From: Eledone cirrhosa
Lineage: Eukaryota
Direction: 5' to 3'
Assembly: GCA_964016885.1 (NCBI GenBank)
Contig: OZ024764.1
Location: 27,528,001-27,592,000 of the forward strand
DNA: 64,000 nucleotides
Under the pieces are notes generated by a model. The model worked only from the letters and a program-made list of their open reading frames with translations. It made no database searches and was not told the origin of the DNA. Every line of letters starts with the position of its first letter. Position 1 is the first letter of the stretch. The position numbers and the translations under genes are program-made. Shown here piece after piece: positions 17,560 to 64,000 of this stretch.

Positions 17560-17695
17560 CTATTTTAGGCACAAGGTCAGTAATTAACCAGTACATTACT
17601 AGTACTTTATTTTATCGACCCCGTAAGGATGAAAGGCAAAGTTGACCTCGGATCGTAAAGGGACGTAACTATGCTGGAAAGCATGGCATCAGACC
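17560..17695 (-). mobile_element. tRNA-derived SINE, truncated by satellite; more complete copy at 60600-60765
   Basis: TACTTTATTTTATCGACCCCGTAAGGATGAAAGGCAAAGTTGACCTCGG, the same family as 6941-7109. Confidence 0.8.
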
Positions 17696-26600: not shown

Positions 26601-28122
26601 TTATGGACATCTCTGCCCCTGTGGCTAATAAATCTGTCATGTAATGTTATGGACATCTCTGCCCCTGTGGCTAATAATTCTGACATGTAATGTTATGGAT
26701 ATCTCTGCCCCTGTGGCTAATAATTCTGAGAGAGATGAAACAAGTGAGGGATAAGAGAGAGATGAAACAAGTGAGGGATTAGAGTGTTGAAACAAGAGAG
26801 AGAGAGGAAGAGAGAGTGAGAGCGAGATCAAACGAGAGAGAGAGAGCGAGATGAAATGAGAGAGTGAGAGCGAGATGAAACGAGAGAGAGAGAGCGAGAT
26901 GAAATGAGAGAGAGAGAGCGAGATGAAATGAGAGAGAGAGAGCGAGATGAAATGAGACAGAGAGAGCGAGATGAAACGAGAGAGAGAGAGAGCGAAATGA
27001 AACGAGACAGATTAGAGCGAGATGAAACGAGAGAGAGAGAGCGAGATGAAATGAGAGAGAGAGAGCGAGATGAAACGAGAGAGTGAGAGCTAGAGGAAAC
27101 GAGAGCTAGAGGAAACGAGAGAGAGAGGAAACGAGAGAGAGGATACGAGAGAGAGGAAACGAGAGTAGAGAGCGAGATGAAACAGGAGAGAGAGAGCGAG
27201 ATGAAACAGGAGAGAGAGAGCGAGATGAAACGAGAGGGAGAGAGAGATGAAACGAGAGAGCGAGAGAGAGATAGAGGGAGATGAAACGACAGAGAGAGAG
27301 ACAGATGAAACGAGGGAGATAGAGATGAAACGAGAGAGAGAGATGAAACGAGAGAGAGGAAGAGAGAGATGGAACGAGAGAGAGGAAGAGAGAGATGGAA
27401 CGAGAGAGAGGAAGACAGAGATGAAACGAGAGAGAGAGAGAGCGAGATGAAACGAGAGAGAGGAAGAGAGAGAACGCGAGATGAAACGAGAGAGAGAGCA
27501 AGATGAAACGAGAGAGAGGAAGAGAGAGAGCGCAAGATGAAACGAGAGAGAGAGAGCGCGAGATGAAAGTCTGTCATGTAATGTTATGGACATATCTGCC
27601 CTTGGGGCTAATAATTGTCATGTAATGTTATGGAAATCTCTGCCCTTGTGGCTAATAATTCTGTCATGTAATGTTATGGACATCTCTGCCCCTGTGGCTA
27701 ATAATTCTGTCATGTAATGTTATGAACATCTCTGCCCCTGTGGCTAATAAATCTGTCATGTAATGTTATGGACATCTCTGCCCCTGTGTCTAATAATTCT
27801 GACATGTAATGTTATGGACATCTCTGCCCCTGTGGCTAATAAATATGACATGTAATGTTATGGACATCTCTGCCCCTGTGGCTAATAAATCTGTCATGTA
27901 ATGTTATGGACATCTCTGCCCCTGTGGCTAATAATTCTGACATGTAATGTTATGGACATCTCTGCCCCTGTGGCTAATAAATCTGTCATGTAATGTTATG
28001 GACATCTCTGCCCCTGTGGCTAATAATTCTGACATGTAATGTTATGGACATCTCTGCCCCTGTGGCTAATAATTCTGACATGTAATGTTATGGACATCTC
28101 TGCCCCTGTGGCTAATAATTCT
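17696..28122 (-). repeat. Composite satellite array, inverted orientation (GA-rich on + strand)
   Basis: Reverse complement of the 1-6275 units. 46-mer blocks at about 18287-18873, 20571-20982, 22404-22910, 24331-24743, 26408-26728, 27571-28122. Internal 1927-bp duplication (ORFs 20892/22819, 21604/23531). Confidence 0.97.
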
Positions 28123-28123
28123 G

Positions 28124-31100
28124 ATTTATTAGCCACAGGGGCAGAGATGTCCATAACATTACATGACAGAATTATTAGCCACAGGGGCATAGATTTCCAT
28201 AACATTACATGTCAGAATTATTAGCCACAGGGGCAGAGATGTCCATAACATTACATGTCAGAATTATTAGCCACAGGGGCAGAGATGTCCATAACATTAC
28301 ATGACAGAATTATTAGCCACAGGGGCAGAGATGACCATAACATTACATGACAATTATTAGCCACAGGGTCAGATATGTCAATAACATTACATGACAGAGT
28401 TTCATCTCGCGCTCTCTCTCTCTCGTTTCATCTCGCTCACCCTCTCTCTCGTTTCATCTCTGTCTTCCTCTCTCTCGTTTCATCTCGCTCTCTCTCTCTC
28501 TCGTTTCATCTCTGTCTTCCTCTCTCTCGTTCCATCTCTCACTTCCTCTCTCTCGTTCCATCTCTCTCTTCCTCTCTCTCGTTTCATCTCTATCTCCCTT
28601 CTTTCATCTGTCTCTCTCTCTGTCGTTTCATCTCGCGCTCTCTCTCTCTCTCGTTTCATCTTGCGCTCTCTCTCTCTCTCGTTTCGTCTTGCTCTCTCTC
28701 TCTCTCTCGTTTCATCTCTGTCTTCCTCTCTCTCGTTCCATCTCTCTCTTCCTCTCTCTCGTTCCATCTCTCTCATCCTCTCTCTCGTTAAATCTCTATC
28801 TCCCTCCTTTCATCTGTCTCTCTCTCTGTCGTTTCATCTCGCGCTCTCTCTCTCTCGTTTCATCTTGCGCTCTCTCTCTCTCGTTTCATCTCGCTCTCTC
28901 TCTCGTTTCATCTCTGTCTTCCTCTCTCTCGTTCCATCTCTCTCTTCCTCTCTCTCGTTCCATCTCTCTCTTCCTCTCTCTCGTTTCATCTCTATCTCCC
29001 TTCTTTCATCTGTCTCGCTCTCTGTAGTTTCATCTCGCGCTCTCTCTCTCTCGTTTCATGTCGCGCTCTCTCTCTCTCGTTTCATCTCGCTCTCTCTCTC
29101 TCGTTTCATCTCTGTCTTCCTCTCTCTCGTGCCATCTCTCTCTTCCTCTCTCTCGTTCCATCTCTCTCTTCCTCTCTCTCGTTTCATCTCTATCTCCCTT
29201 GTTTCATCTCTCTCTCGCTCTCTCGTTTCATCTCTCTCTCCCTCTCGTTTCATCTCGCTCTCTCTCTCCTGTTTCATCTCGCTCTCTCTCTCTCGTTTCA
29301 TCTCTGTCTTCCTCTCTCTCGTTCCATCTCTGTCTTCCTCTCTCTCGTTCCATCTCTCTCTTCCTCTCCCTCGTTTCATCTCTCTCTCGCTCTCTCGTTT
29401 CATCTCTCTCTCCCTCTCATTTCATCTCGCTCTCTCTCTCCTGTTTCATCTCGCTCTCTACTCTCGTTTCCTCTCTCTCTCTCGTTTCATCTCTCTCTCC
29501 CTCCCGTTTCATCTCGCTCTCTCTCTCTCATTTCATCTCGCTCTCTCTCTCTCGTTTCATCTCGCTCTCCCTCTCTCGTTTCATCCCGCTCTCACTCTCT
29601 CATTTCTTCTCGCTCTCTCTCTCTTGTTTCAACACTCTAATCCATCACTTGTTTACTATCTCTCAGAATTATTAGCCACAGGGACAGAGATGACCATAAC
29701 ATTACATGTCAGAATTATTAGCCACAAGGGCAGAGATGTCCATAACATTACATGACAGAATTATTAGCCACAGGGGCAGAGATGACCATAACATTACATG
29801 AAAATTATTAGCCACAGGGGCAGATATGTCAATAACATTACATGACAGAGTTTCATCTCGCGCTCTCTCTCTCTCGTTTCATCTTGCGCTCTCTCTCTCT
29901 CTCGTTTCATCTTGCTCTCTCTCTCGTTTCATCTCTGTCTTCCTCTCTCTCGTTCCATCTCTCTCTTCCTCTCCCTCGTTCCATCTCTCTCATCCTCTCT
30001 CTCGTTTCATCTCTATCTCCCTCCTTTCATCTGTCTCTCTCTCTGTCGTTTCATCTCGCGCTCTCTCTCTCTCGTTTCATCTCGCGCTCTCTCTGTCTCG
30101 TTTCATCTCGCTCTCTCTCGTTTCATCTCTGTCTTCCTCTCTCTCGTTCCATCTCTCTCTTCCTCTCTCTCGTTTCATCTCTATCTCCCTCGTTTCATCT
30201 CTCTCTCGCTCTCTCGTTTCATCTCTCTCTCCCGCTCGTTTCTTCTCGCTCTCTCTCTCCTGTTTCATCTCGCTCTCTACTCTCGTTTCCTCTCTCTCAT
30301 TTCCTCTCTCTCTCGTTTCATCTCTGTCTCGTTTCATCTCGCTCTCTCTCTTTCTCGTTTGATCTCGCTCTCACTCTCTCGTTTCATCTCGCTTCTCTCA
30401 CTCTCTTGTTTCATCTCGCTCTCTCTCTCTTCCTCTCTCTCTCTTGTTTCAACACTCTAATCCCTCACTTGTTTTATCTCTCTCTAATCCCTCACTTGGT
30501 TCATCTCTCTCAGAATTATTAGCCACAGGGGCAGAGATGTCCATAACATTGCATGTCAGAATTATTAGCCACAGGGCAGAGATGTCCATAACATTACGTC
30601 AGAATTATTAGCCACAGGGGCAGAGATGTCCATAACATTACATGTCAGAATTATTAGCCACAGGGGCAGAGATGTCCATAACATTACATGACAGAATTAT
30701 TAGCCACAGGGGCAGAGATGTCCATAACATTACATGTCAGAATTATTAGCCATAGGGGCAGAGATGTCCATAACATTACATGACAATTATTAGCCCCAAG
30801 GGCAGATATGTCGATAACATTACATGAGAGAGTTTCATCTCGCGCTCTCTCTCTTCCTCTCTCTCGTTTCATCTCTGTCTTCCTCTCTCTCGTTCCATCT
30901 CCCTCTTCCTCTCTCTCGTTCCATCTCTCTCTTCCTCTCTCTCGTTTCATCTCTATCTCCCTCCTTTCATCTGTCTCTCTCTCTGTCGTTTCATCTCGCG
31001 CTCTCTCTCTCTCGTTTCATCTTGCGCTCTCTCTCTCTCGTTTCATCTCGCTCTCTCTCTCTCTCGTTTCATCTCTGTCTTCCTCTCTCTCGTTCCATCT

Positions 31101-34100
31101 CTCTCTTCCTCTCTCTCGTTTCATCTCTATCTCCCTCGTTTCATCTCTCTCTCGCTCTCTCGTTTCATCTCTCTCTCCCTCTCGTTTCATCTCGCTCTCT
31201 ACTCTCGTTTCCTCTCTGTCTCGTTCCATCCCGCTCTCTCTCTCTCTCATTACATCTCGCTCTCTCTGTCTCGTTTCATCTCGCTCTCACTCTCTCGTTT
31301 CAACACTCTAATCCCTCACTTGTTTTATCTCTCTCTAATCCCCCACTTGTTTCATCTCTCTCAGAATTATTAGCCACAGGGGGAGAGATGTCCATAACAT
31401 TACATGTAAGAATTATTAGCCACAGGGGCAGAGATGTCCATAACATTACATGACAGAATTATTAGCCACAGGGCCAGTGATGTCCATAACATTACATGAC
31501 AATTATTAGCCCGAAGGGCAGATATGTCCATAACATTACATGACAGAGTTTCATCTCGCGCTCTCTCTCTTGCTCTCTCTCGTTTCATCTCGCTCTCTCT
31601 CTCTCTCGTTTCATCTCGCTCTCTCGTTTCATCTCGCTCTCTCTCGTTTCATCTCTGTCTTCCTCTCTCTCGTTCCATCTCTCTCTTCCTCTCTCTCGTT
31701 CCATCTCTCTCTTCCTCTCTCTCGTTCCATCTCTCTCGTCCTCTCTCTCGTTTCATTTCTATCTCCCTCCTTTCATCTGTCTCTCTCTCTGTCGTTTCAT
31801 CTCGCGCTCTCTCTCTCTCGATTCATCTCGCGCTCTCTCTCTCTCGTTTCATCTCGCTCTCTCTCTCTCTCGTTTCATCTCTGTCTTCCTCTCTCTCGTT
31901 CCATCTCTCTCTTCCTCCCTCTCTTCCTCTCTCTCGTTTCATCACTATCTCCCTCGTTTCATCTCTCTCTCCCTCTCGTTTCATCTCGCTCTCTCTCTCC
32001 TGTTTCATCTCGCTCTCTACTCTCGTTTCCTCTCTGTCTCGTTCCATCCCGCTCTCTCTCTCTCTCATTACATCTCGCTCTCTCTGTCTCGTTTCATCTC
32101 GCTCTCTCTCTCTCTCGTTTCATCTCGCTCTCACTCTCTCGTTTCATCTCGCGTTTCATCTCACTCTCCCTGTCTCATTTCATCTCGCTCTCTCTCTCTC
32201 TCTTCCTCTCTCTCTCTTGTTTCAACACTCTAATCCCTCACTTGTTTTATCTCTCTCTAATCCCTCACTTGTTTCATCTCTCTCAGAATTATTAGCCACA
32301 GGGGCAGAGATGTCCATAACATTACATGTCAGAATTATTAGCCACAGGGCAGAGATGTCCATAACATTACATGTCAGAGTTATTAGCCACAGGGGCAGAG
32401 ATGTCCATAACATTACATGTCAGAATTATTAGCCACAGGGGCGGAGATGACCATAACATTACATGACAATTATTAGCCACAGGGGCAGATATATCAATAA
32501 CATTACATGATAGAGTTTCATCTCGCGCTCTCTCTCTCTCGTTTCATCTTGCTCTCTCTCTCTCTCGTTTCATCTCTGTCTTCCTCTCTCTCGTTCCATC
32601 TCTCTCTTCCTCTCTCTCGTTCCATCTCTCTCATCCTCTCTTTCGTTTCATCTCTATCTCCCTCCTTTCATCTGTCTCTCTCTCTGTCGTTTCATCTCGT
32701 GCTCTCTCTCTCTCGTTTCATCTCGCGCCCTCTCTGTCTCGTTTCATCTCGCTCTCTCTCTCTCTCGTTTCATCTCTGTCTTCCTCTCTCTCGTTCCATC
32801 TCTCTCTTCCTCTCTCTCTTCCTCTCTCTCGTTTCATCTCTATCTCCCTCGTTTCATCTCTCTCTCGCTCTCTCGTTTCATCTCTCTCTCCCTCTCGTTT
32901 CATCTCGCTCTCTACTCTCGTTTCCTCTCTGTCTCGTTCCATCCCGCTCTCTCTCTCTCACATTACATCTCGCTCTCTCTGTCTCGTTTCATCTCGCTCT
33001 CTCTCTCTCTGGTTTCATCTCGATCTCACTCGCTCGTTTCATCTCGCTTCTCTCACTATTGCGTTTCATCTCGCTCTCCCTGTCTCATTTCATCTCGCTC
33101 TCTCTCTCTCTCTTCCTCTCTCTCTCTTGTTTCAACACTCTAATCCCTCACTTGTTTTATCTCTCTCTAATCCCTCCCTTGTTTCATCTCTCTCAGAATT
33201 ATTAGCCACTGGGGCAGAGATGTCCATAACATTACATGTCAGAGTTATTAGCCACAGGGGCAGAGATGTCCATAACATTACATGACAATTATTAGCCCCA
33301 AGGGCAGATATGTGCATAACATTACATGACAGAGTTTCATCTCGCGCTCTCTCTCTCTCGTTTCATCTCGCGCTCTCTCCCTTCCTCTCTCTCGTTTCAT
33401 CTCGATCTCTCTCTCTCTCGTTTCACCTCTGTCTTTCATCTCTCTCTTCCTCTCTCTCGTTCCATCTCTCTCTTCCTCTCTCTCGTTTCATCTCTATCTC
33501 CCTCCTTTCATCTGTCTCTCTCTCTGTCGTTTCATCTCGCGCTCTCTCTCTCTCCTTTCATCTCGTGCTCTCTCTCTCTCGTTTCATCTCGCTCTCTCTC
33601 TCGTTTCATCTCTGTCTTCCTCTCTCTCGTTCCATCTCTCTCTTCCTCTCTCTCTTCCTCTCTCTCGTTTCATCTCTATCTCCCTCGTTTCATCTCTCTC
33701 TCCCTCTCGTTTCATCTCGCTCTCTCTCTCCTGTTTCATCTCGCTCTCTACTCTCGTTTCCTCTCTCTCGTTTCCTCTCTGTCTCGTTCCATCCCGCTCT
33801 CTCTCTCTCTCATTACATCTCGCTCTCTCTGTCTTGTTTCATCTCGCTCTCTGTCTCTCTCGTTTCATCTCGCTCTCACTCTCTCGTTTCATCTCGCGTT
33901 TCATCTCACTCTCCCTGTCTCATTTCATCTCGCTCTCTCTCTCTCTTCCTCTCTCTCTCTTGTTTCAACACTCTAATCCCTCACTTGTTTTATCTCTCTC
34001 TAATCCCTCACTTGTTTCATCTCTCTCAGAATTATTAGCCACAGGGGCAGAGATGTCCATAACATTACATGTCAGAATTATTAGCCACAGGGCAGAGATG

Positions 34101-36181
34101 TCCATAACATTACATGTCAGAATTATTAGCCACAGGGGCAGAGATGTCCATAACATTACATGTCAGAATTATTAGCCACAGGGGCGGAGACGTCCATAAC
34201 ATTACATGACAGAATTATTAGCCACAGGGGCAGAGATGACCATAACATTACATGACAATTATTAGCCACAGGGGCAGATATATCAATAACATTACATGAT
34301 AGAGTTTCATCTCGCGCTCTCTCTCTCTCTCGTTTCATCTTGCGCTCTCTCTCTCTCGTTTCATCTTGCTCTCTCTCTCTCTCGTTTCATCTCTGTCTTC
34401 CTCTCTCTCGTTCCATCTCTCTATTCCTCTCTCTCGTTCCATCTCTCTCATCCTCTCTCTCGTTTTATCTGTATCTCCCTCCTTCAATCTGTCTCTCTCT
34501 CTGTCGTTTCATCTCGTGCTCTCTCTCTCTTGTTTCATCTCGCGCTCTCTCTGTCTCGTTTCATCTCGCTCTCTCTCTCTCTCTCGTTTCATCTCTGTCT
34601 TCCTCTTTCTCGTTCCATCTCTCTCTTCCTCTCTCTCGTTTCATCTCTATCTCCCTCGTTTCATCTCTCTCTCGCTCTCTCGTTTCATCTCTCTCTCCCT
34701 CTCGTTTCATCTCCCTCTCTACTCTCGTTTTCTCTCTGTCTCGTTCCATCCCGCTCTCTCTCTCTCTCATTACATCTCGCTCTCTCTGTCTCGTTTCATC
34801 TCGCTCTCTCTCGCTCTCGTTTCATCTCGCTCTCACTCTCTCGTTTCATCTCGCTTCTCTCACTATTGCGTTTCATCTCGCTCTCCCTGTCTCATTTCAT
34901 CTCGCTCTCTCTCTCTCTCTTCCTCTTGTTTCAACACTCTAATCCCTCACTTGTTTTATCTCTCTCTAATCCCTCACTTGTTTCATCTCTCTCAGAATTA
35001 TTAGCCACAGGGGCAGAGATGTCCATAACATTACATGTCAGAGTTATTAGCCACAGGGGCAGAGATGTCCATAACATTACATGACAATTATTAGCCCCAA
35101 GGGCAGATATGTCCATAACATTACATGACAGAGTTTGATATCGCGCTCTCTCTCTCTCGTTTCATCTCGCGCTCTCTCTCTTCCTCTCTCTCGTTTCATC
35201 TCGCTCTCTCTCTCTCTCGTTTCACCTCTGTCTTCCATCTCTGTCTTCCTCTCTCTCGTTCCATCTCACTCTTCCTCTCTCTCATTTCATCTCTCTCTCT
35301 CTCGTTTCATCTGTCTCTCTCTCTGTCGTTTCATCTCCCTCTATCTCTCTCTCCCTCTCGTTTCATCTCGCTCTCTCTCTCCTGTTTCATCTCGCTCTCT
35401 CTCTCTCATTTCATCTCGCTCTCTCTCTCTCATTTCATCTCGCTCTCTCTCTCTCGTTTCATCTCGCTTTCACTCTCTCGTTTCCTCTCGCTCTCACTCT
35501 CTCGTTTCATCTCGCTCTCCCTGTCTCGTTTCATCTCGCTCACACTCTCTCATTTCATCTCGCTCTCTCTCTCTTCTTTCAACACTCTAATCCCTCACTT
35601 GTTTCATCTCTCTCAGAATTATTAGCCACAGGGGCAGAGATGTCCATAACATTACATGTCAGAATTATTAGCCACAGGGGCAGAGATGTCCATAACATCA
35701 CATGTCAGAATTATTAGCCACAGGGGCAGAGATGTCCATAACATTACATGTCAGAATTATTAGCCACAGGGGCAGAGATGTCCATAACATTACATGACAG
35801 ATTTATTAGCCACAGGGGCAGAGATGTCCATAACATTACATGGCAGATTTATTAGCCACAGGGGCAGAGATGTCCATAACATTACATGTCAGAATTATTA
35901 GCCACAGGGGCAGAGATGTCCATAACATTACATGACAGATTTATTAGCCACAGGGGCAGAGATGTCCATAACATTACATGACAGATTTATTAGCCACAGG
36001 GGCAGAGATGTCTATAACATTACATGACATAATTATTAGCCACAGGGGCAGAGATGTCCATAACATTACATGACAGATTTATTAGCCATAGGGGCAGAGA
36101 TGACCATAACATTACATGACAGAATTATTAGCCACAGGGGCAGAGATGTCCATAACATTACATGACAGAATTATTAGCCAC
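28124..36181 (+). repeat. Composite satellite array, forward orientation
   Basis: Same 46-mer and CT-tract units. Nine 46-mer blocks from 28125 to 36181. Confidence 0.97.
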
Positions 36182-36409
36182 ATGTAATGTTATGGACATC
36201 TCTGCCCCTGTGGCTAATAATTCTGTCATGTTATGTTATGGACATCTCTGCCCCTGTGGCTAATAATTCTGACATGTAATGTTAGGGACATCTCTGCCCC
36301 AGTGGCTCATAATTCTGACATGTAATGTTATGGACATCTCTGCCCCTGTGGCTAATAATTCTGTCATGTAATGTTATGGACATCTCTGCCCCTGTGGCTA
36401 ATAATTCTG
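36181..36409 (-). repeat. Five inverted 46-bp monomers terminating the array
   Basis: Orientation flips at TTATTAGCCA-CATGTAATGTTATGG (36171-36195). Confidence 0.93.
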
Positions 36410-37469
36410 TTCAAATCTGACTGACATGCATGGTATATATTTATGTTTCATTAGACACCGCCACAATACACAGGAACTTATAAAGATATGTATATATTGT
36501 CCAGGAGTTTCGAGTTTAGTGGGAATTGTACAAATCTCAATTGGAGCTAGTCCCTGCAAGATCAGCATAAATAATGTTATACCTTTTCATGAAATCTTGC
36601 ACACCCGATATTTTATACATGATTATTTAAAGGTGAACAAAAACCGAAGAACATTGAGCAGCATTTCTCAACCTTTCTACCCATGTTGATCTCTTGAAAT
36701 AGTTTTTATGTCTCAAGGAAGCCTTGCATAAAATATACTTTTTCTATCTCTAGAGCAGTGGTTCCCAAATCGTGTGCTGTGAGATGAAACTAGATGAGCT
36801 GCAAAAGACTAAGATTAAGTTTTAAGATGTGAAAAATATAAAACTGAAATTTCATATAAAAGTTCAAATATAGCTACAGCCACAAACCTAGGCTCCACAC
36901 CCCGCAACGCAGAGGAGAGTAAGATAGTACTGAGGCCTGACTCACCTCTTCCACTCCATTGAGACCTCTGCCATACTTGGTCCCCCTACTGCTGATTTCC
37001 TCCATAAAGTCGGGAGGAAAGACGGCAGGAGCCTCGTGAGGAGGGGCAACTATTGTAGCAGGTGTCTCTGGCCTTGTTCCGAGGTAACGCTTTTACGTTT
37101 CTTCCACGTGTTGCGGCTGAGGGACCACTTAGACTGGGGTGAAGTGTCTGTCCCTCCCCCGACTTCTTACTTCCTTTTTTTTCTCCTTTTCAATTTCTTT
37201 TCTCTTCTTGCTTATCTCTGCTATACCACGGCATCAAAAAGATATATGATATATGTATGTATGGTATAGGTGTATTTATATTTAGGATAGTTATCAAAGG
37301 TAAATAGACTGGTTGGAGTAATAACAGTCTTGTTTATGTATATACACACATATATACATATATATATATATATATATATGTTTGTTCTTGTATTTCTATA
37401 GAAAAGGTAAAGAAAAGAAGAGTGCTCTATGTATTGTACAGAGCTATTTAATTACATAATAAACAACAG

Positions 37470-40180
37470 AATGGAAAACATTCAGACAGAGAAGAATGGA
37501 TAATGAGCGTTGTAAGAGAAATTGGCCAACAATTAATATTAATGGAAATGTAGAAGAATTTCATATTAGTGATATGAATGTTTCGTGTGATCACTGTGGA
37601 GCTTTGAAATTTAGAAATGAAAATTGTAACTGTTGTAATAAAGGAAAGGTTGTGTTGCCACCATTGCAAATATACCCTGAGAGACTGAGAAATCTCTTTG
37701 AAAGAGGCCAGGAAGCAGTTGATTTCACAGAAACATCTGCAATTAAAACTACATTTATTTCACTTCATTTGGTGTTACCACCCGGCAGAGGCCCGTATAG
37801 CTTTCATATTCAGGGTCAAACATATCAATACACCCCGATCTCTGTAACCTGCAGAAAATACACCACAATATGGCCAGTTATATATTATTGATGGGAATGA
37901 AAGTGTGTAGCACAGATTGGAAGTACAACCAAATAATTGTTTCTGGCACAAGGCCAGCAATTACTGGTACTTTATTCTATCGACCTCATAAGGATGAAAA
38001 CAAAGTCAACCTTAGAGGGATTTGAACCCAGAACGTAAAGGGCCATAACCCTATGCTGCAAAGCATGGTGTCTGACGCTCTACCGATACTGCCAATCCAC
38101 CGCCCTAGTACCAACAAATAATGACTGCTCACCACAAAAAATGGCTATGATAAGAGAGGTGTTGCATGAATGTTATCCATATGTCGAAGTGTACAATACA
38201 ATGCATGGCATCAAACAGCAAAGTTCTAGAAGAGAAAATTGTCGTGTACAGAACTGTGAATTAAGATTTAGAAGAGGATCAGATATGAGCTGCTATAATT
38301 TACCAACTAGTAATGATAGCTGTTGTTTTGTGGGGGATTGAGGGCACACCACCTGTACAAAGAGATATTATCATCTTTCCTAAAGACCATCCTCCTCAGA
38401 AAATACCACATAATTCATGCCACTTGGACCTCATGACCGACCGATAATGGTGAATTTTGGTGGCATAGTGACATGGAGAGGAATGCAGGACCTGTGTTTG
38501 CAATAGACTGACAATGCAGGAGTATTACATATACTGTATAGCATATAGAGGAGGATTTAGTGCGATATATAGGGCAGGTAAATTATTTTAGCAGTATTTA
38601 GTGGATGCCTATATGAAAGTAGAGGGATGCAGGCTTCAATATTTGAGGAACAATCAAGCCCAATTGTGAGTGGATGAGTATAATGGTTTAATGAATTATC
38701 TAAACAGATGATAACACTGAGCCTTAAAAAATGAAGACAAGATATGAAACAGAGAAGACATTGACAGAATCGTGTCAGCAGAAATACCTGCATTGGAAGA
38801 TGATCCAGTACTACATGAGCAGGTTTAAAAGTTTATTATCCACAGGCCATGTGGTTCTGGAAACCCTTTTCCCCCATTTATACAAAATGGATTTTTCCAA
38901 AAGAACTATCCAAAAACCTACAGAAGGGAAACATTATTGAACCTAAATGGATACCCAGAGTACAGGAGGTGCAAGACAGGAACTGCAGTGTAAATTGGAT
39001 GACATTCAGTAGATAACAGGAATGTTGTGCCACTTAATGCCTTTTTGCTTAAGAAATATTGTGCACATATTAATGTTGAAGTTTGCACTTCTGTAAAAAG
39101 TGTCAAGTACCTCTTTAAATATGTTACATGGGGCATGATTGTACATCTATAGAAGTAACGAATAATGCATTACCTAATGAGGCTCAGAACCAACACAACC
39201 ATGATGAAATAAGAACCTATCTTTGTTGCAGGTATGTGTCTCAGCCAGAAGCAGTGTTGTGTCTCTCAGAATTTAAGCTTCATGGTACATCACATACAGT
39301 ATACAGCCTAGCCACACACCTGGAGAACAAACAGAGTTTACTTTCAAAGAGGCAATGCTTACACCTTCTGGGATGCCGCCTCACTAACTCCAATTAAAAG
39401 CAGGATCAATAATAATGCTTCTATGGAATATTTCAATCCAGAACAGATTATTTTATTGGCACAAGATTAGAAGTAGTGGAACTGCATAAACATTTTATCG
39501 AAGCTTCTCATATCTATGGTCCTTTGATGGGCAGGTGTGTTTTGATCCGAAGACTGAAGTTAGTTCCCAGTGGTGCCAACATCCCTTTTACTTTGGAAAG
39601 ACCCCAGTTTCCATTAAGACTGTCATATGCCATGACAATCAACAAGAACCATGGTCAAATACATGATAAAGTGGGTCTGTTCCTCCCTGAGCAAGTATTT
39701 AACCCTGGACAATTGTATGTTGCTTTTTCAAGAGTTCACAGACAGATGTAAAAATTAATCCTAGCAAACCCCCACCACTCCTACAACTGTTAGCTGTTAG
39801 ACCACCCCCAGCACCACCCAACCTCCGTTCTAGTCCCACCGTTAGAACCAATGCTGCTTACCCTGCCTCTTTTACTAGTTCACTCCTTCGCTCGAATTTC
39901 AAAGCTGGCCCTCTACACTTGGTCGTGCTCTCTGTGTCCGCACTAGCCGGTACCTAAACACAATAAAATGTCACCTGTGCTACCAAAACTACCACAGGAA
40001 CTCTGTCGGCATCAGCAAGGCTCAAGCCGAAAGGCTTCAATACTAGACCTGTAATCAGGGCCACTTTACCTCCGACGACCAGCTTTCTACCGATTGTGTG
40101 TTGATGGAGGGGACATGAGACCAGCAAAGTCCTAGGAGTAGAGACTAGTAAATAATAAACGGTCCTAGCTATGTTAAGAA
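37470..40180 (+). pseudogene. Helitron copy H3 with additional small deletions
   Basis: Colinear with H1. Extra deletions at about 39359 (TGCT microhomology) and 40179 (TTAAGAA microhomology). Confidence 0.92.
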
Positions 40181-41742: not shown

Positions 41743-41748
41743 GCCCTT

Positions 41749-44240: not shown

Positions 44241-44424
44241 CGCTCCAGTTATTACTTCGTTAGACATAGTCAGTAATTGAAATTAAAGCCTAAAGGTGTA
44301 CTAAAGCCACAAACGTTTTTCTATCTATGAATTATTAGTGGTGTAAACAGATGAATTAAAGTCAAAGCTAACAAATATATCACCAAGAAGAATATCTAAG
44401 GATTTCCAAAGTGTAAAGTCAGCT

Positions 44425-46750: not shown

Positions 46751-49586
46751 ATGCAAATAGACTTAGAATGGAAAACATTCAGACAGAGAAGAATGGATAA
46801 TGAGCGTCATAAGAGAAATTGGCCAACAATTAATATTAATGGAAATCTAGAAGAATTTCATATTAGTGATATGAATGTTTCGTGTGATCACTGTGAAGCT
46901 TTGAAATTTAGAAATGAAAATTGTAACTGTTGTAATAAAGGAAAGGTTGTGTTGCCTCCATTGCAAATATACCCCGAGAGACTGAGAAATCTCTTTGAAA
47001 GAGGCCAGGAAGCAGTTGATTTCACAGAAACATCTGCAATTAAAACTACATTTATTTCACTTCATTTGGTGTTACCACCCGGCAGAGGCCCGTATAGCTT
47101 TCATATTCAGGGTCAAACATATCACTACACCCCCACCTCTGTAACCTGCAGAAAATACACCACAATATGGCCAGTTATATATTATTGATGGGAACGAAGG
47201 TGTGTAGCACAGATTGGAAGTACGACCAAATAATTGTTTCTGGCACAAGGCCAGCAATTACTGGTACTTTATTCTATCGACCTCATAAGGATGAAAACAA
47301 AGTCAACCTTGGAGGGATTTGAACCCAGAACGTAAAGGGCCATAACCCTATGCTGCAAAGCATGGTGTCTGACGCTCTACCGATACTGCCAATCCACCGC
47401 CCTAGTACCAACAAATAATGACTGCTCACCACAAAAAATGGCTATGATAAGAGAGGTGTTGCATGAATGTTATCCATATGTCGAAGTGTACAATACAATG
47501 CATGGCATCAAACAGCAAAGTGCAAGAAGAGAAAATTGTCGTGTACAGAACTGTGAATTAAGATTTAGAAGAGGATCAGATATGAGCTGCTATAATTTAC
47601 CAACTAGTAATGATAGCTGTTGTTTTGTGGGGTTTGAGGGCAGACCACCTGTACAAAGAGATATTATCATCTTTCCTAAAGACCATCCTCCTCAGAAAAT
47701 ATCACATAATTCATGCCACTTGGACCTCATGACTGACCCATAATGGTGAATTTTGGTGGCATAGTGACATGGAGAGGAATGCAGGACCTGTGTTTGCAAT
47801 AGACTGACAATGCAGGAGTATTACATATACAGTATAGCATATAGAGGAGGATTTAGTGTGATATATAGGGCAGGTAAATTATTTTAGCAGTATTTAGTGG
47901 ATGCCTATATGAAAGTAGAGGGATGCAGGCTTCTATATTTGAGGAACAATCAAGCCCAATTGTGAGTGGATGAGTATAATGGTTTAATGAATTATCTAAA
48001 CAGATGATAACACTGAGCCTTAAAAAATGAAGACAAGATAAGAAACAGAGAAGACATTGACAGAATCGTGTCAGCAGAAATACCTGCATTGGAAGATGAT
48101 CCAGTACTACATGAGCAGGTTTAAAAGTTTATGATCCACAGGCCATGTGGTTCTGGAAACCCTTTTCCCCCATTTATACAAAATGGATTTTTCCAAAAGA
48201 ACTATCCAAAAACCTACAGAAGGGAAACATTATTGAACCTAAATGGATACCCAGAGTACAGGAGGTGCAAGACAGGAACTGCAGTGTAAATTGGATGACA
48301 TTCAGTAGATAACAGGAATGTTGTGCCATTTAATGCCTTTTTGATTAAGAAATATTGTGCACATATTAATGTTGAAGTTTGCGCTTCTGTAAAAAGTGTC
48401 AAGTACCTCTTTAAATATGTTATATGGGGCATGATTGTACATCTATAGAAGTAACGAATAATGCATTACCTAATGAGGCTCAGAACCAACACAACCATGA
48501 TGAAATAAGAACCTATCTTTGTTGCAGGTATGTGTCTCAGCCAGAAGCAGTGTCGTGTCTCTCGGAATTTAAGCTTCATGGTACATCACATACAGTATAC
48601 AGCCTAGTCACACACCTGGAGAACAAACAGAGTTTACTTTCAAAGAGGCAATGCTCAGGTTGTGGTAGAAATGCAGGGACCCTTGCTGCCTGGTTCAAGC
48701 TAAATGAACTTGCTTACACCTTCTGGGATGCCGCCTCACAAACTCCAATTATAAGCAGGATCAATAATAATGCTTCTATGGAATATTTCAATCCAGAACA
48801 GATTATGTAATGGCACAAGATTAGAAGTAGTAGAACTGCATAAACATTTTATCAAAGCTTCTCATATCTATGGTCCTTTGATGGGCAGGTGTGTTTTGAT
48901 CCCAAGACTGAAGTTATCCCCCAGTGGTGCCAACATCCCTTTTACTTTGGAAAGACCCCAGTTTCCATTAAGACTGTCATATGCCATGACAATCAACAAG
49001 AACCATGGTCAAATACATGATAAAGTGGGTCTGTTCCTCCCTGAGCAAGTATTTAACCCTGGACAATTGTATGTTGCTTTTTCAAGAGTTCACAGACAGA
49101 TGTAAAAATTAATCCTAGCAAACCCCCACCACTCCTACAACTGTTAGCTGTTAGCCCACCCCAGCACCACCCAACCTCCGTTCTAGTCCCACCGTTAGAA
49201 CCAATGCTGCTTACCCTGCCTCTTTTACTAGTTCACTCCGTCGCTCGAATTTCAAAGCTGGCCCTCTACACTTGGTCGTTGCCAGCTCACCACCTGGTTG
49301 TGCTCTCTGTGTCCGCACTAGCCGGTACCTAAACACAATAAAATGTCACCTGTGCTACCAAAACTACCACAGGAACTCTGTCGGCATCAGCAAGGCTCAA
49401 GCCGAAAGGCTTCAATACTAGACCTGTAATCAGGGCCACTTTACCTCCGACGACCAGCTTTCTACCGAGTGTGTGTTGATGGAGGGGACATGAGACCAGC
49501 AAAGTCCTAGGAGTAGAGACTAGTAAATAATAAACGGTCCTAGCTATGTTAAGAATATATATAAGAAAAATGTTCTATACATTTAA
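46751..49586 (+). pseudogene. Helitron copy H4, colinear with H1
   Basis: ORFs 46751..47188, 47438..47743, 48424..48810, 48770..49105 mirror H1. Same SINE and PHD insertions. Confidence 0.93.
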
Positions 49587-57053: not shown

Positions 57054-57073
57054 ATTTCTCAGTCTCTCAGGGT

Positions 57074-57695
57074 ATATATTCCCGCCGTTGAAATAAAAAT
57101 TTTAATAGAAAAACGGCGGGAATATATGTTACAACCCAATCTATATATATTTAGGTTGTAACATATATTCCCGCCGTTGAAATAAAAATTTTAATAGAAA
57201 AACGGCGGGAATATATGTTACAACCCAATCTACATATATTTGGGTTGTAACATATATTCCCGCCGTTGAAATAAAAATTTTAATAGAAAAACGGCGGGAA
57301 TATATGTTACAACCCAATCTACATATATTTGGGTTGTAACATATATTCCCGCCGTTGAAATAAAAATTTTAACATAAAAACGGCGGGAATATATATTACA
57401 ACCCAAACATATATAGGTTGGGTTGTAACATATATTCCCGCCGTTTTTCTATTAAAATTTTTATTTCAACGGCGGGAATATATGTTACAACCCCAAAATA
57501 TGTAGCTTGGATTGTAACATATATTCCCGCCGTTTTTCTATTAAAATTTTTATTTCAACGGCGGAAATATATGTTACAACTCAAATATATATAGATTGGG
57601 TTGTAACATATATTCCCGCCGTTTTTCTATTAAAATTTTTATTTCACCGGCAGGAATATGTTACAACCCAAATATATATATATTGAGTTGTAACA
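57074..57695. repeat. 89-bp self-palindromic minisatellite, 7 units
   Basis: CCCGCCG recurs at 57081, 57170, 57259, 57348, 57437. Each unit holds GGGTTGTAACATATATTCCCGCCGTT and its reverse complement. Confidence 0.95.
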
Positions 57696-59155
57696 TGGGT
57701 TACATATAAGGTCTCATTTTTTTTCTTTTCTTTCTTTCAGTTTTCTTCTTATCTCTAGATATAAATATATATACATAAGGTAACTTGGTAGAATTGTTAG
57801 AACATCAGATAGAATTCTTTGCAGTATTTTTCCAGTTCTTTACTCTGAGTTCAACTTTACCTTTCTTCCATTCAGTGTCGATAAGTCTTGAATATGTCTA
57901 ACGTAGCAATAACTGGAGCTACTTAACCAAGTTTTCCCAACCTAGTCGATGTCACCTACTGGTTGGCGATTTAAACTGTTGGCTGCGACAATGACCAACT
58001 AATCAGTCAGATTCGAACTCACTATGTCTGGCATATATTTTATATTTTATATTTGAATGAAGTTCTGTAAGTAACCTGGTGGCTTAGATGGCAATACTGC
58101 TTGAATAGATGGCTTCTAGTTCATTCCCTATCCAGGATTGTAGAATTAATTTTATTTAGTTATTATTTAATCAATTGTTTTAACAAACAAATTATATCTA
58201 TAAAACGCCAAATATAGTGAGTTCAAATCTGACTGACATGCATGGTATATATTTATGTTTCATTATACAGCGACACAATACACAGGAACTTATAAAGATA
58301 TGTATATATTGTCCAGGAGTTTCGAGTTTAGTGGGAATTGGTACAACTCTCAGTTGGAGCTAGTCCCTGCAAGATCAGCATAAATAATGTTATACCTTTT
58401 CATGAAATCTTGCACACCCGATATTTTATACATGATTATTTAAAGGTGAACAAAAACCAAAGAACATTGTGCAGCATTCTCAACCTTTCTACCCATGTCG
58501 ATCTCTTGAAATAGTTTTTATGTCTCAGGGAAGCCCTGCATAAAATATACTTTTTCTATCTCTAGAGCAGTGGTTCCCAAATCGTGTGCTGAGAGATGAA
58601 ACAAGATGAGCTGCAAAAGACTAAGATTAAGTTTTATGATGTGAAAAATATAAAACTGAAATTTCATATAAAAGTTCAAATATAGCTACAGCCACAAACC
58701 TAGGCTCCACACCCCGCAATGCAGAGGATAGTAAGATAGTACCAAGGCCTGACTCACCTCTTCCACTCCATTGAGACCTCTGCCATACTTGGTCCCTGTA
58801 CTGCTGATTTCCTCCATAAAGTCGGGAGGAAAGACGACAGGAGCTTCATGAGGAGGGGCGACTATTGTAGCAGGTGTCTCTGGCCTTGCTCTGAGGTAAC
58901 GCTTTTATGTTTCTTCCACAGGTTGCGGCTGAGGGACCACTTAGACTGGGGTGAAGTGTCTGTCCCTCCCCCGACTTCTTACTTCTTTTTTTTTCTCATT
59001 TTCATTTTCTTTTCTCTTCTTGCTTATCTCTGCTATACCACGGCATCAAAAACATATATGATATATGTATGTATGGTATAGGTGTATTTATATTTAGGAT
59101 AGTTATCAAAGGTAAATAGACTGGTTGGAGCAATAACAGTCTTGTTTATGTATGT

Positions 59156-59202
<47 letters not shown>

Positions 59203-59303
59203 TGTTCTTGTATTTCCATAGAAAAGGTAAAGAAAAGAAGAATGCTCTATGTATTGTACAGAGCTATTTAATTACATAATAAACAACAGAATATAATTAT
59301 TCC

Positions 59304-60063
59304 ATGCAAATAGACTTAGAATGGAAAACATTCAGACAGAGAAGAATGGATAATGAGCGTCGTAAGAGAAATTGGCCAACAATTAATATTAATGGAAATG
59401 TAGAAGAATTTCATATTAGTGATATGAATGTTTCGTGTGATCACTGTGGAGCTTTGAAATTTAGAAATGAAAATTGTAACTGTTGTAATAAAGGAAAGGT
59501 AGTGTTGCCACCATTGCAAATATACCCTGAGAGACTGAGAAATCTCTTTGAAAGAGGCCAGGAAGCAGTTGATTTCACAGAAACATCTGCAATTAAAACT
59601 ACATTTATTTCACTTCATTTGGTGTTACCACCCGGCAGAGGCCCGTATAGATTTCATATTCAGGGTCAAACATATCAATACACACCCATCTCTGTAACCT
59701 GCAGAAAATACACCACAATATGGCCAGTTATATATTATTGATCGGAACGAAGGTGTGTAGCACAGATTGGAAGTACAACCAAATAATTGTTTCTGGCACA
59801 AGGCCAGCAATTACTGGTACTTTATTCTATCGACCTCATAAGGATGAAAACAAAGTCAACCTTAGAGGGATTTGAACCCAGAACGTAAAGGGCCATAACC
59901 CTATGCTGCAAAGCATGGTGTCTGACGCTCTACCGATACTGCCAATCCACTGCCCTAGTCCCAACAAATAATGACTGCTCACCACAAAAAATGGCTATGA
60001 TAAGAGAGGTGTTGCATGAATATAATCCATATGTCGAAGTGTACAATACAATGCATGGCATCA
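59304..60063 (+). pseudogene. Helitron copy H6 (5' part up to the insertion point)
   Basis: ORF 59304..59741. Homology to H1 stops at ATGCATGGCATCA (60051-60063). Confidence 0.9.
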
Positions 60064-61609
60064 CAAATGAATATATATATATATACTACTAAAGTGTATG
60101 TAAAATTTTAAAATAAATACTTAAATTCAATTTGTATAATTACACATACAATATGTTTTGTTGTAAAACCCTAAATAATGATTTAAGAAATGATGTCAAT
60201 CTCTTTGTACAGAGAAAAACAATTTATATATATGCATCGTGTGCGCGTGTATACTCCATTTAAGACAGCGAAAAACCTAGTACCTCCTTCAAAGAATGCC
60301 AAATAGTTTATGCCTAAGGTGTAACACTAATTAAGTTACTGGTATAGATATTTCAGTTGAACCCTGCTTCAAACATGCATATTATTATTATATATTTTCA
60401 AACACACTTACATACATTATATTTATACACATAGAAATGTTAAAACTAAAGTATAATGATATAACAACAGTATATAATAGTTTTCTTCACTTTATTGAGA
60501 TGCAATCGTTTTAAAGAAAAAACATGACAGTATAAGAAATATTTAATATGATAACATAATATTTCAGGTAGGATGGTGGTTTCTCTTTGAACTAATAATT
60601 GTTTCTACTTCAGGCACAAGGCCAGCAATTAACCAGTACATTACTGGTACTTTATTTTATCGACCCCGTAAGGATGAAAGGCAAAGTTAACCTCGGATCG
60701 TAAAGGGACGTAACTATGCTGGAAAGCATGGCGTCAGACCCTCTACCGATACTGCCAATTCACCATACAGTATAATTATACAAATATGCATATAGATAGC
60801 AATATATATACACTAATATGTATGTACATATTTATACATATATACATATATATAGGGAGAGAGAGAGACACATGTATGTATATATATATACACATGCGTG
60901 TATGTATGTGTTTATGTACATTCTTCGGTATATATATATGAGTCACGGTTTATTACACATTGGAGACACAGAGAGAAAGAGTTGAAACGAGAGGTGAGAG
61001 AGTTGAAACAAGAGAGGAGAGAGTTGAAACGAGAAAAGAGAGAGAGAGTTGAAACGAGAGGAGAGAGAGAGAGAGTTGTAACGAGAGGAGAGAGAGAGAG
61101 AGAGTTGAAACGAGAGGAGAGAGAGTTGAAACGAGGAGAGAGTTGAAACAAGAGGGTGAGGGGAGAGAGGGGAGAGAGTGATGAAACGAGTCGGAGATAG
61201 AGTGTGAAAGAGAGAGAGAGAGGAAGAGAGAGAGAGAGAGGAAGAGAGAGAGAGAGGAAGAGAGAGAGAGAAAGAGAGAGAGAGAGGAAGAGAGAGAGAG
61301 GAAGAGAGAGAGAGGAAGAGGGAGAGGGGGGATGAAACAAGAGGGTGAGGGATGAAACAAGAGAGAGAGGGGAGAGAAAGAGAGAGGGGAGAGAAAGAGA
61401 GAGAGAGAGAGAGAACGAATTGAAACAAGAGAGAGATGAAACAAGTGAGGGATTAGAGTGTTGAAACAAGAGAGAGAGGAAGAGAGAGAGAGAGCAAGAT
61501 GGAACGAGAGAGAGAGAGCGAGATGAAATGAGAGCGAGATGAAACGAGAGAGAGAGAGAGTGAGATGAAATGAGAGAGAGAGAGAGCGAGAGAGAGAGCG
61601 AGATGAAAC

Positions 61610-61641
<32 letters not shown>

Positions 61642-62671
61642 TGAAATGAGACAGAGAGAGCGAGATGAAACGAGAGAGAGAGAGAGCGAGATGAAATGAG
61701 AGAGTGAGTGCGAGATGAAATGAGAGAGAGTGAGAGCGACATGAAATGAGAGAGAGAGAGCGAGATGAAACGAGAGAGAGAGAGAGCGAGATGAAATGAG
61801 AGAGAGTCAGAGCGAGATGAAATGAGAGAGTGAGAGCGAGATGAAATGAGAGAGAGAGAGCGAGATGAAATGAGAGAGAGTGAGAGCGAGATGAAATGAG
61901 AGAGAGAGAGCGAGATGAAATGAGAGAGAGAGGAAACGAGACTAGAGAGCGAGATGAAACAGGAGAGAGAGAGCGAGATGAAACAGGAGAGAGAGAGCGA
62001 GATGAAACAGGAGAGAGAGAGCGAGATGAAACGAGAGGGAGAGAGAGATGAAATGAGAGAGCGAGAGAGAGATAGAGGGAGATGAAACGACAGAGAGAGA
62101 GACAGATGAAACGAGAGAGAGAAATAGAGATGAAACGAGAGAGAGTGATGAAACGAGAGAGAGGAAGAGAGAGATGGAACGAGAGAGAGGAAGAGAGAGA
62201 TGGAACGAGAGAGAGGAAGACAGAGATGAAATGAGAGATAGGAAGACAGAGATGAAACGAGAGAGAGAGAGAGCGAGATGAAACGAGAGAGAGAGAGCGC
62301 GAGATGAAACTCTGTCATGTAATGTTATGGACATATCTGCCCCTGGGGCTAATAATTGTCATGTAATGTTATGGTCATCTCTGCCCCTGTGGTTAATAAT
62401 TCTGTCATGTAATGTTATGGTCATGTCTGCACCTGTGGCTAATAAATCTGTCATGTAATGTTATGGTCATCTCTGCCCCTGTGGCTAATAATTCTGTCAT
62501 GTAATGTTATGGACATCTCTGCCCCTGTGGCTAATAATTCTGACATGTAATGTTATGGACATCTCTGCCCCGGTGGCTAATAATTCTGACATGTAATGTT
62601 ATGGACATCTCTGCCCCTGTGGCTAATAATTCTGACATGTAATGTTATGGACATTGCTATCTTGTTTCATC
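60064..62671. mobile_element. 2.6-kb insert in the Helitron: AT-rich segment, SINE and one composite satellite monomer
   Basis: Flanked by TCA (60061-60063 and 62672-62674). Joining the flanks restores the uninterrupted GGCATCAAACAGCAAAG seen in H1, H3 and H4. Confidence 0.75.
60965..62654 (-). repeat. Single extended composite satellite monomer (GA tract plus about 7.5 copies of the 46-mer)
   Basis: GA tract at 60965-62310 and 46-mer block at 62311-62654. Confidence 0.95.
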
Positions 62672-64000
62672 TCAAACAGCAAAGTGCAAGAAGAGAAAAT
62701 TGTCGTGTACAGAACTGTGAATTAAGATTTAGAAGAGGATCAGATATGAGCTGCTCTAATTTACCAACTAGTAATGATAGCTGTTGTTTTGTGGGGGATT
62801 GAGGGCACACCACCTGTACAAAGAGATATTATCATCTTTCCTAAAGACCATCCTCCTCAGAAAATACCACATAATGCATGCCACTTGGACCTCATGACCG
62901 ACCGATAATGGTGAATTTTGGTGGCATAGTGCCATGGAGAGGAATGTAGGACCTGTGTTTGCAATAGACTGACAATGCAGGAGTATTACATATACTGTAT
63001 AGCATATAGAGGAGGATTTAGTGCGATATATAGGGCAGGTAAATTATTTTAGCAGTATTTAGTGGATGCCTATATGAAAGTAGAGGGATGCAGGCTTCAA
63101 TATTTGAGGAACAATCAAGCCCAATTGTGAGTGGATGAGTATAATGGTTTAATGAATTATCTAAACAGATGATAACACTGAGCCTTAAAAAATGAAGACA
63201 AGATAAGAAACAGAGAAGACATTGACAGAATCGTGTCAGCAGAAATACCTGCATTGGAAGATGATCCAGTACTACATGAGCAGGTTTAAAAGTTTATGAT
63301 CCACAGGCCATGTGGTTCTGGAAACCCTTTTCCCCCATTTATACAAAATGGATTTTTCAAAAAGAACTATCCAAAAACCTACAGAAGGGAAACATTATTG
63401 AACCTAAATGGATACCCAGAGTACAGGAGGTGCAAGACAGGAACTGCAGTGTAAATTGGATGACATTCAGTAGATAACAGGAATGTTGTGCCATTTAATG
63501 CCTTTTTGCTTAAGAAATATTGTGCACATATTAATGTTGAAGTTTGCGCTTCTGTAAAAAGTGTCAAGTACCTCTTTAAATATGTTACATGGGGCATGAT
63601 TGTACATCTATAGAAGTAACGAATAATGCATTACCTAATGAGGCTCAGAACCAACACAACCATGATGAAATAAGAACCTATCTTTGTTGCAGGTATGTGT
63701 CTCAGCCAGAAGCAGTGTCGTGTCTCTCGGAATTTAAGCTTCATGGTACATCACATACAGTATACAGCCTAGCCACACACCTGGAGAACAAACAGAGTTT
63801 ACTTTCAAAGAGGCAATGCTCAGGTTGTGGTAGAAATGCAGGGACCCTTGCTGCCTGGTTCAAGCTAAATGAACTTGCTTACACCTTCTGGGATGCCGCC
63901 TCACTAACTCCAATTATAACAGGATCAATAATAATGCTTCTATGGAATATTTCAATCCAGAACAGATTATGTAATGGCACAAGATTAGAAGTAGTAGAAC
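62672..64000 (+). pseudogene. Helitron copy H7 (continuation of H6; runs off the window end)
   Basis: Colinear with 7212-8542 of H1. Confidence 0.92.

What the first reader, a model, noticed from the sequence alone, without database searches (positions are those of the whole stretch)
60061..62674. Satellite-carrying insert caught in both unexpanded (2.6 kb) and expanded (about 19 kb) states
Seen: intact Helitron copies read GGCATCAAACAGC. H6 stops at GGCATCA (60063) and H7 resumes at TCAAACAGC (62672) with no loss, so 60064-62671 is a clean insert flanked by TCA. It holds one composite satellite monomer. The sister copy H2 has the same insert starting at 16985, but there the satellite runs to 36409 with about 15 monomers and two inversions. 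Inference: a non-autonomous element seeds this composite satellite. The junction can be read as a 3-bp TSD, or as a Helitron-type A|TC...|T insertion without a CTRR end. Helitron/Helentron seeding of satellites is established in Drosophila (DINE-1) and oysters. I do not recognise this family.
Basis: partly seen in the sequence, partly recalled or inferred. Interest (0 to 1): 0.75.

Follow-up and report, generated by a model that had tools for sequence, protein, structure and literature searches.

The report
Patchwork insertion that bred a satellite
The insert is real, but every copy checked sits in the same spot of one dead transposon fragment, so it is most likely a single DNA-repair patch that was copied along with a large repeated block and in which a new satellite probably grew, not a jumping element.

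Summary
The 2.6-kb insert and its junctions are real. It does not behave like a mobile element. All 20 left-end and 30 right-end loci fetched lie at the same base of one dead Helitron fragment, inside a tandemly amplified block family on contigs C1, C18, C20, C25 and C644. No TIR, subTIR or CTRR end was found. The left 0.9 kb is a reordered mosaic of a 6.2-kb tandem unit on C22 plus a SINE. The 'TSD' is mostly microhomology: CA lies in the donor, TC in the satellite. The 19-kb 'expanded' copy is not the same insert grown. It lacks about 750 bp and ends at another junction, restarting 1.8 kb upstream. Of 46 right ends, 45 close a short insert; one holds 14.7 kb between both ends and looks recombinant. 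Best reading: one template-switch insertion, then one tandem duplication that made the composite monomer, one fold-back inversion, and unequal exchange. Whether the short form is the ancestor is unresolved. The scan's notes held no look-alike of this DNA. Ordinary mechanism, unusually complete record.

The parts
57694..60063 (+). Host: left part of a dead Helitron fragment (N-terminal RepHel remnant, already broken by a SINE at about 59782-59950)
   Evidence: Paralogous frame 46730-47185 matches Helraiser 115-223; collinear copies
60061..60063 (+). Left junction J1; TCA, of which CA is also donor sequence
   Evidence: 17 of 17 C22 units and the C18:33.63 Mb locus read CACAAATG; 2 of 3 C22 loci printed read TCACAAATG; 99 exact J1 copies
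60062..60372 (+). Mosaic piece A = C22 unit 1205-1524 (91%); 96% to C18:33.63 Mb
60369..60587 (+). Mosaic piece B = C22 unit 3280-3547 (77%), joined to A across a 1.75-kb gap with short shared letters
60594..60764 (-). High-copy SINE-like repeat (octopod SINE by recall; family not tested)
   Evidence: 73% to the SINE at 59782-59950; very high depth in public runs
60765..60976 (+). Mosaic piece C (AT2) = C22 unit about 2660-3013, placed out of order
   Evidence: 69% BLAST match to unit 2794-3013; alignment
60977..62310 (+). GA-rich block built on GAGATGAAAC; leader to about 61425, then the part that repeats in arrays
   Evidence: leader motif has 37 copies, 36 in the clusters and 1 at C18:33.63 Mb
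62311..62654 (+). 46-bp minisatellite, about 7.5 copies
   Evidence: 2666 exact 45-mers in the genome
62653..62674 (+). Right junction J2: 10 nt inverted from 60794-60803, then 13 nt of inverted GA satellite, then host TCA
   Evidence: 46 exact copies
62672..64000 (+). Host Helitron fragment resumes (Rep and Pif1 helicase remnants)
   Evidence: 98.6% to 47508-48836
16985..17687 (+). Sister copy (class LB): left part of the insert, cut inside the SINE
17690..36409 (.). Long array, class LB: 6 forward monomers, fold-back inversion, 8 inverted monomers, second inversion
36409..38213 (+). Junction J3 and restart at the 58221 equivalent, leading through an empty site
   Evidence: 26 exact J3 copies
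1..6275 (-). End of a 43-kb array, class LA, joined (J4) to the 59121 equivalent
47504..47516 (+). Empty site (also 7209 and 38207)
   Evidence: 128 copies at up to 1 mismatch

Best explanation
The insert is a mosaic of repeat DNA found at one fixed site of a dead Helitron fragment; it likely arose once, by microhomology-mediated template-switch repair, and was likely copied passively as the surrounding block amplified. SHOWN: one site, mosaic make-up, short shared letters at J1-J4, one clade, three classes inside a larger repeating unit of roughly 100-125 kb. INFERRED steps: (1) a broken end in one Helitron copy copied pieces of a C22-family unit, a SINE, the GA block and the 46-mer, and rejoined the host through two short inverted snippets; (2) one tandem duplication from the 27-bp GA element to the end of the 46-mer block made the composite monomer; (3) one fold-back switch inside the 46-mer inverted the array; (4) further 2-bp-microhomology joins (J3, J4) fused arrays to empty copies; (5) unequal exchange or conversion changed array length (16-43 kb) and spread the block in tandem and between chromosomes. 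The short class most likely keeps the original pair of ends but is a sister lineage, not the literal ancestor. No function is indicated.
For: Same flank in 20 of 20 left loci and 30 of 30 right loci fetched. All 99 J1, 46 J2, 26 J3 and 93 AT2 matches were listed and lie in the clusters. The 42 insert copies form one clade (100/97), sister to C18:33.63 Mb, with 17 C22 units outside. Filled versus empty left flanks: 3 changes against 19.5 when shuffled, 28 filled and 31 empty rows; one origin not ruled out. Donor pieces in changed order. Inverted 10-mer at J2 matches 60794; simulated chance 0.004-0.016. One monomer junction: 170 exact and 53 near variants against 1 other type among the 25 classes printed; one fold-back junction in 9 of 10 long arrays of the 474 kb and also on C18, C20, C644. 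Contigs from two other public runs bridge the A/B mosaic join.
Against: No locus with the complete mosaic outside the Helitron was found, so it is not shown whether the mosaic formed during insertion or before. The source of the 46-mer was not found; a diverged tandem relative in another organism's run (X2) suggests it is older. Short copies carry private derived changes (two substitutions, a 5-bp loss) and nest inside the insert tree, with weak support (bootstrap not settled). The 10-mer test was chosen after seeing the match. Pattern counts miss diverged copies (some C20 AT2 copies are absent). 16 of 46 right flanks were not read. A 3-copy 46-mer piece sits alone on C7, so satellite bits can leave the block.
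Confidence: 0.62

Rival explanations
1. Same non-mobile origin, but the short form is secondary: J1 with a long array came first, and J2 arose later by aborted gene conversion or contraction between a filled and an empty copy. J2, J4 and J3 would then be one class of event, duplicating 3, 943 and 1843 bp of host.
For: J3 and J4 have that form. Short copies are near-identical, nest in the tree and carry derived changes. The tip of J2 is inverted satellite, as in long arrays. Recombinants with a long-class left half and J2 exist (C20:27.045-27.061 Mb, C25:26.533 Mb). In run X5 nearly all depth at 60340 and 60344 shows the long-class/donor letters.
Against: J2 returns to within 3 bp of J1, unlikely for an independent break. 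Short copies keep donor states lost in the LA class (AT2 end). Short and long flanks form sister clades (99/96 and 99/97).
Confidence: 0.22
2. Helitron machinery captured the pieces in trans and rolling-circle replication amplified the host fragment with its cargo.
For: The host is a Helitron remnant. Helitrons capture host fragments and form tandem arrays (PMC12628747 passages). Insert-free host copies form 8.2-8.6-kb tandem arrays on C23. Mosaic pieces lie in one orientation.
Against: The repeating units include LINE and other flank DNA and the C23 units break off before the helicase end. No hairpin-CTRR end was seen at the two places inspected. The host frames are broken. Copies are clustered, not dispersed.
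Confidence: 0.08
3. One reading: a non-autonomous DNA element (3-bp TSD type, or Helitron/Helentron-like) that seeds the satellite.
For: TCA on both sides; precise empty allele; one locus with both ends and 14.7 kb of satellite; precedent in oyster HINEs.
Against: No second insertion site in 50 flanks read. Longest inverted word shared by the two 80-bp ends is 5 nt exact, 7 nt with one mismatch; no terminal CTRR in either orientation. The left end falls mid-way in a C22 tandem unit.
Confidence: 0.03
4. The array structure or copy numbers are assembly artefacts.
For: Many copies are 99-100% identical. No long reads were available to me.
Against: Copies differ by class-specific SNPs and indels and array lengths vary. 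The mosaic left part, the 46-mer, the monomer junction and the empty site occur in contigs of other runs.
Confidence: 0.05

Closest known systems
Oyster Cg_HINE / Drosophila DINE-1 non-autonomous Helentrons carrying tandem repeats (PMC7492417; 9 passages seen)
   Same: Tandem repeats tied to fixed flanking segments, near Helitron sequence; an empty allele exists; array length varies.
   Different: HINEs are dispersed, insert at TT without TSD, and have subTIR, IR and 3' palindrome. This insert has one site, none of these end structures, and long arrays that lose the right end.
Templated complex insertions by iterative template switching (FoSTeS/MMBIR; PMC5120786, abstract and outline seen) and fold-back inverted insertions at breaks (PMC11724301, abstract and outline seen)
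   Same: 2-3-bp microhomologies, short inverted templated snippets at a junction, several pieces from one donor locus, fold-back inversion.
   Different: Those are fresh events in patients or yeast. Here the event is germline-fixed in an assembly, amplified about 100-fold, and its enzymes cannot be assigned.
'Shuffled' satellite-Helitron loci and satellites arising in transposon graveyards (PMC12628747; 10 passages seen)
   Same: Truncated Helitron parts, arrays in both orientations, arrays with element sequence on one side only.
   Different: Here the source of most pieces, the single monomer junction and the single fold-back junction can be named.
Macrosatellites and subtelomeric duplicon blocks, such as D4Z4 (recalled, not tested)
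   Same: Multi-kb units in tandem, shared between chromosomes; the C25 cluster lies within 3 Mb of the contig end.
   Different: The unit is nested (8-9-kb Helitron unit, insert classes, roughly 100-125-kb higher-order repeat) and no intact gene was seen.

Membership tests
Non-autonomous Helentron (HINE/DINE-1) | 11-12-bp subterminal repeats plus adjacent IR | tested here: not met
   Best shared word between the 80-bp ends: 5 nt exact inverted, 7 nt with one mismatch, inverted or direct; feature
Non-autonomous Helentron (HINE/DINE-1) | 3' palindrome after the array | tested here: not met
   Last 90 nt fold only into short 46-mer stems, -7.9 kcal/mol in total, no shuffle control
Non-autonomous Helentron (HINE/DINE-1) | Insertion at TT, no TSD | tested here: not met
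   Site is GGCATCA/AACAGC
Non-autonomous Helentron (HINE/DINE-1) | Dispersed copies in unrelated flanks | tested here: not met
   20 of 20 and 30 of 30 flanks are one site
Canonical non-autonomous Helitron | 5' TC, insertion between A and T (features recalled) | tested here: inconclusive
   The junction can be written A|TC...|T, but TC/CA is shared with host, donor and satellite
Canonical non-autonomous Helitron | 3' hairpin and CTRR (recalled) | tested here: not met
   Nearest CTRR words are about 40 bp inside, in the 46-mer; none at the other end on the minus strand
Cut-and-paste element with 3-bp TSD (CACTA, PIF/Harbinger; features recalled) | Terminal inverted repeats | tested here: not met
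Cut-and-paste element with 3-bp TSD (CACTA, PIF/Harbinger; features recalled) | Different TSDs at different sites | tested here: not met
   Only one site found
Templated complex insertion (MMBIR/FoSTeS/TMEJ type) | Microhomology at junctions | tested here: met
   J1 CA, J2 TC, J3 GT, J4 CT, A/B join
Templated complex insertion (MMBIR/FoSTeS/TMEJ type) | Short templated, often inverted, junction snippets | tested here: met
   Inverted 10-mer from 60794 and inverted 13-mer of satellite; chance 0.004-0.016, post hoc
Templated complex insertion (MMBIR/FoSTeS/TMEJ type) | Formed in one repair event by a named pathway | not testable with these tools
   No complete pre-insertion donor found; enzymes cannot be inferred from sequence
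Composite satellite within a higher-order macrosatellite | Long head-to-tail arrays in repeated larger units | tested here: met
   10 long arrays of 15.7-43.2 kb make up 50% of 474 kb; LA, LB and short classes recur in order

The most novel reading that the evidence does not exclude
One genome holds nearly every stage in the birth of a composite satellite: the donor macrosatellite without satellite (C22), a derivative in which the GA block has appeared (C18:33.63 Mb), the one-monomer insertion, forward-only arrays (C1), fold-back arrays, and a roughly 100-kb higher-order repeat, each step marked by a single junction. Birth and spread of a satellite could then be ordered and dated by junction across individuals and species, without any transposon carrier.
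Probability: 0.4. Interest if true: 0.48.

Novelty: new member of a known kind. Interest (0 to 1): 0.3.

Why it matters
It is a caution: a clean empty allele plus a 3-bp 'TSD' can come from microhomology repair inside a duplicated block, and 'caught expanding' can be paralogues of one event. It also gives a young satellite whose junctions (J1-J4, monomer junction, fold-back) are countable markers, so the order of steps in satellite birth is testable with population long reads. The mechanisms themselves are known and no function is indicated.

Tried and rejected
Raw self-BLAST was swamped by satellite and repeated masked. Progenitor of the 46-mer: best local scores against the C22 unit, U1, Helitron region, insert left part and C18:33.63 were 25-35, against 30 +/- 2.8 (max 39) for shuffled queries on the C22 unit. 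A search with a diverged variant gave 164 matches; the 100 listed were all in the clusters. Rfam hits on 4 loci were all below gathering scores and are AT-repeat noise. No tRNA in 7 loci. Pfam found no Helitron-specific family in 6 frames, only Pif1_2B and RVT_1 above cut-off; PDB search settled the host. The LINE at the C1 array start does not resume at the far end of the stretch examined. Public runs: only Logan contigs were laid, no long reads. No listed record bridges J1. Small shares X2 and X3 are not used for habitat or identity. Papers: five searches. The search octopus + satellite DNA + Helitron gave 4 papers, seen as listings only, none on this family by title or abstract start. Supplements and repeat libraries were not read and could already name the family. 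'Octopod' rests on my recall of the SINE and was not tested. Earlier-findings look-ups near the locus and by sequence were empty.
Full report
OBSERVATION. The window is G000:C25:27,528,001-27,592,000. The empty site occurs at 7209, 38207 and 47504, and the filled copy stops at 60063 and resumes at 62672 with TCA on both sides. The host is a broken Helitron: three frames of the empty paralogue match Helraiser. The copy at 16985 shares the left junction, and its array has 14 GA and 16 46-mer blocks with two inversions. It lacks about 750 bp, and at 36409 it restarts at the equivalent of 58221 instead of resuming the host. A third array at 1-6275 ends at a further junction (59121 equivalent).

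IS IT MOBILE? Exact counts in the genome: left junction 99, right end 46, J3 26, AT2 motif 93 at up to 3 mismatches. All these places were listed, and all lie on C1 212.6 Mb, C18 25.0-25.1 and 34.9-35.8 Mb, C20 26.8-27.35 Mb, C25 14.7 and 26.4-29.1 Mb, or C644. I read flanks for 20 of the 40 scored left-end hits and 30 of the 46 right ends; every one continues in the same Helitron sequence. A few copies have lost J1 by later deletion or SINE insertion (C25 14.7 Mb, C25 27.378 Mb, C644) but remain inside the block. The ends share no inverted word above 5 nt exact and have no terminal CTRR. The empty host has 128 copies, including insert-free tandem arrays of 8.2-8.6 kb on C23 (100 places listed).

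SHORT AND LONG FORMS. In 474 kb around the window there are 4 short inserts and 10 long arrays of 15.7-43.2 kb, in two classes: LA (one inversion, ends at J4) and LB (two inversions, ends at J3). They recur in order in a unit of roughly 100-125 kb, and long arrays make up half the DNA. Of the 46 right ends, 45 lie within 4 kb of an AT2 motif (median 1873 bp). The exception, C20:27.045-27.061 Mb, has both termini around 14.7 kb of satellite, with an LA-type left half and a short-type right end, so it looks recombinant.

WHERE THE INSERT CAME FROM. A mismatch search showed one copy outside the clusters among 100 listed of 115, at C18:33.63 Mb. It shares piece A at 96% with a different upstream flank, then carries other DNA and a homologous GA block without 46-mers. 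Its middle part led to a 6.2-6.3-kb tandem unit in several arrays on C22. The insert's left part is that unit in changed order: 1205-1524, 3280-3547, a SINE, then about 2660-3013. All 17 C22 units in the tree read CACAAATG at the left end, so CA of the 'TSD' is donor sequence. On the right, TTTCATCTC is the satellite's own word (479 times in the window; the full TCA version 7 times, junction included), so TC is satellite sequence. Just inside J2 lie 10 nt inverted from 60794 (simulated chance 0.004-0.016, post hoc) and 13 nt of inverted satellite. J3 and J4 each show 2 bp of shared letters. The source of the 46-mer was not found.

TREES. On piece A, 42 insert copies form one clade (100/97), sister to C18:33.63 Mb, with C22 units outside; the bootstrap had not settled, and four copies lacking piece A could not be included. 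On 760 bp of left flank, 28 filled and 31 empty copies need 3 changes against 19.5 when shuffled; short-class and long-class flanks are sister clades; one origin is not ruled out, nor proven. Short copies keep one donor state that LA lost and carry private changes of their own, so neither form is the literal ancestor.

HOW THE SATELLITE GREW (inferred). The step from a 46-mer block back to the GA block is one junction type: 170 exact and 53 near variants against 1 other among the 25 classes printed. One forward-to-inverted junction, a fold-back inside the 46-mer, is shared by 9 of 10 long arrays in the 474 kb and by arrays on C18, C20 and C644. The C1 array is forward-only. This fits one tandem duplication, one fold-back, then unequal exchange. 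Of 2666 exact 46-mer words, the 100 listed fall in the clusters except 2 on C7, where a 3-copy piece lies alone; 428 lie in the 474 kb. Scaling that density over the clusters gives roughly the total, which is my estimate and not a count.

INDEPENDENT DATA. Only Logan contigs were laid. A 544-nt contig (X1) and a 472-nt contig (X4) bridge the A/B mosaic join. X1, X4 and X6 show the empty site, X1 and X6 the monomer junction, and X2 a diverged tandem 46-mer relative. No listed record bridged J1 or J2; long-read confirmation is open.

COMPARISON. It fails the HINE features given in PMC7492417 (passages) and the recalled Helitron and TIR-element features. It works like the templated insertions described in PMC5120786 and PMC11724301 (abstracts) and resembles the shuffled satellite-Helitron loci reviewed in PMC12628747 (passages). 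I found no paper on this family (listings only; supplements not read). The scan's own notes had no look-alike; two notes on other mosaic arrays in this genome are unchecked context.

VERDICT. A real, probably undescribed satellite family, most likely born in a one-off patchwork insertion inside a macrosatellite. Not a non-autonomous transposon. Interest 0.3; the main value is the junction-by-junction record.

Noticed in passing
L067:1-1800 (G000:C1 about 212.608-212.610 Mb): A degenerate telomere-like array (TTAGGG-containing units) sits beside the C1 copy of the block, near the middle of a 443-Mb contig; it may mark an old chromosome end or a scaffold join.
   Followed up: no
L071:4760-4895 (G000:C7 42.17 Mb): About three 46-mer copies lie alone inside what looks like a SINE (recalled), without GA block or insert flank; a small templated transfer of satellite.
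   Followed up: partly
L142, L161-L174 (G000:C22 15.1-15.2, 16.4, 18.26, 30.5-30.7 Mb): A 6.2-6.3-kb AT-rich macrosatellite with a long central palindrome (unit about 2050-2400); no tRNA or Rfam family found; function unknown. Diverged, mostly inverted pieces of it (73-89%) also lie at window 44236-45139.
   Followed up: partly
L141 (G000:C18 33.63 Mb): In this C22-family derivative the GA block begins right after the left arm of the palindrome, at a word resembling the GA unit; the GA repeat may have been born there.
   Followed up: partly
L128-L134 (G000:C23 8.6, 15.2, 17.45-17.57 Mb): Insert-free 8.2-8.6-kb tandem arrays of the same Helitron fragment plus flank.
   Followed up: partly
window 9384-10026 and 49677-50154; 57054-57693; 40873-41085: Three other minisatellites (55, about 89 and 43 bp) of variable length in the same block; another precedes the C18 25.0 Mb and C644 copies.
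   Followed up: no
window 41743-43203: Broken LINE reverse-transcriptase frames (Pfam RVT_1) inside the repeated unit.
   Followed up: no
L068:9255-9439; G000:C25 27,378,331: Later SINE insertions into single insert copies, usable as dating markers.
   Followed up: no
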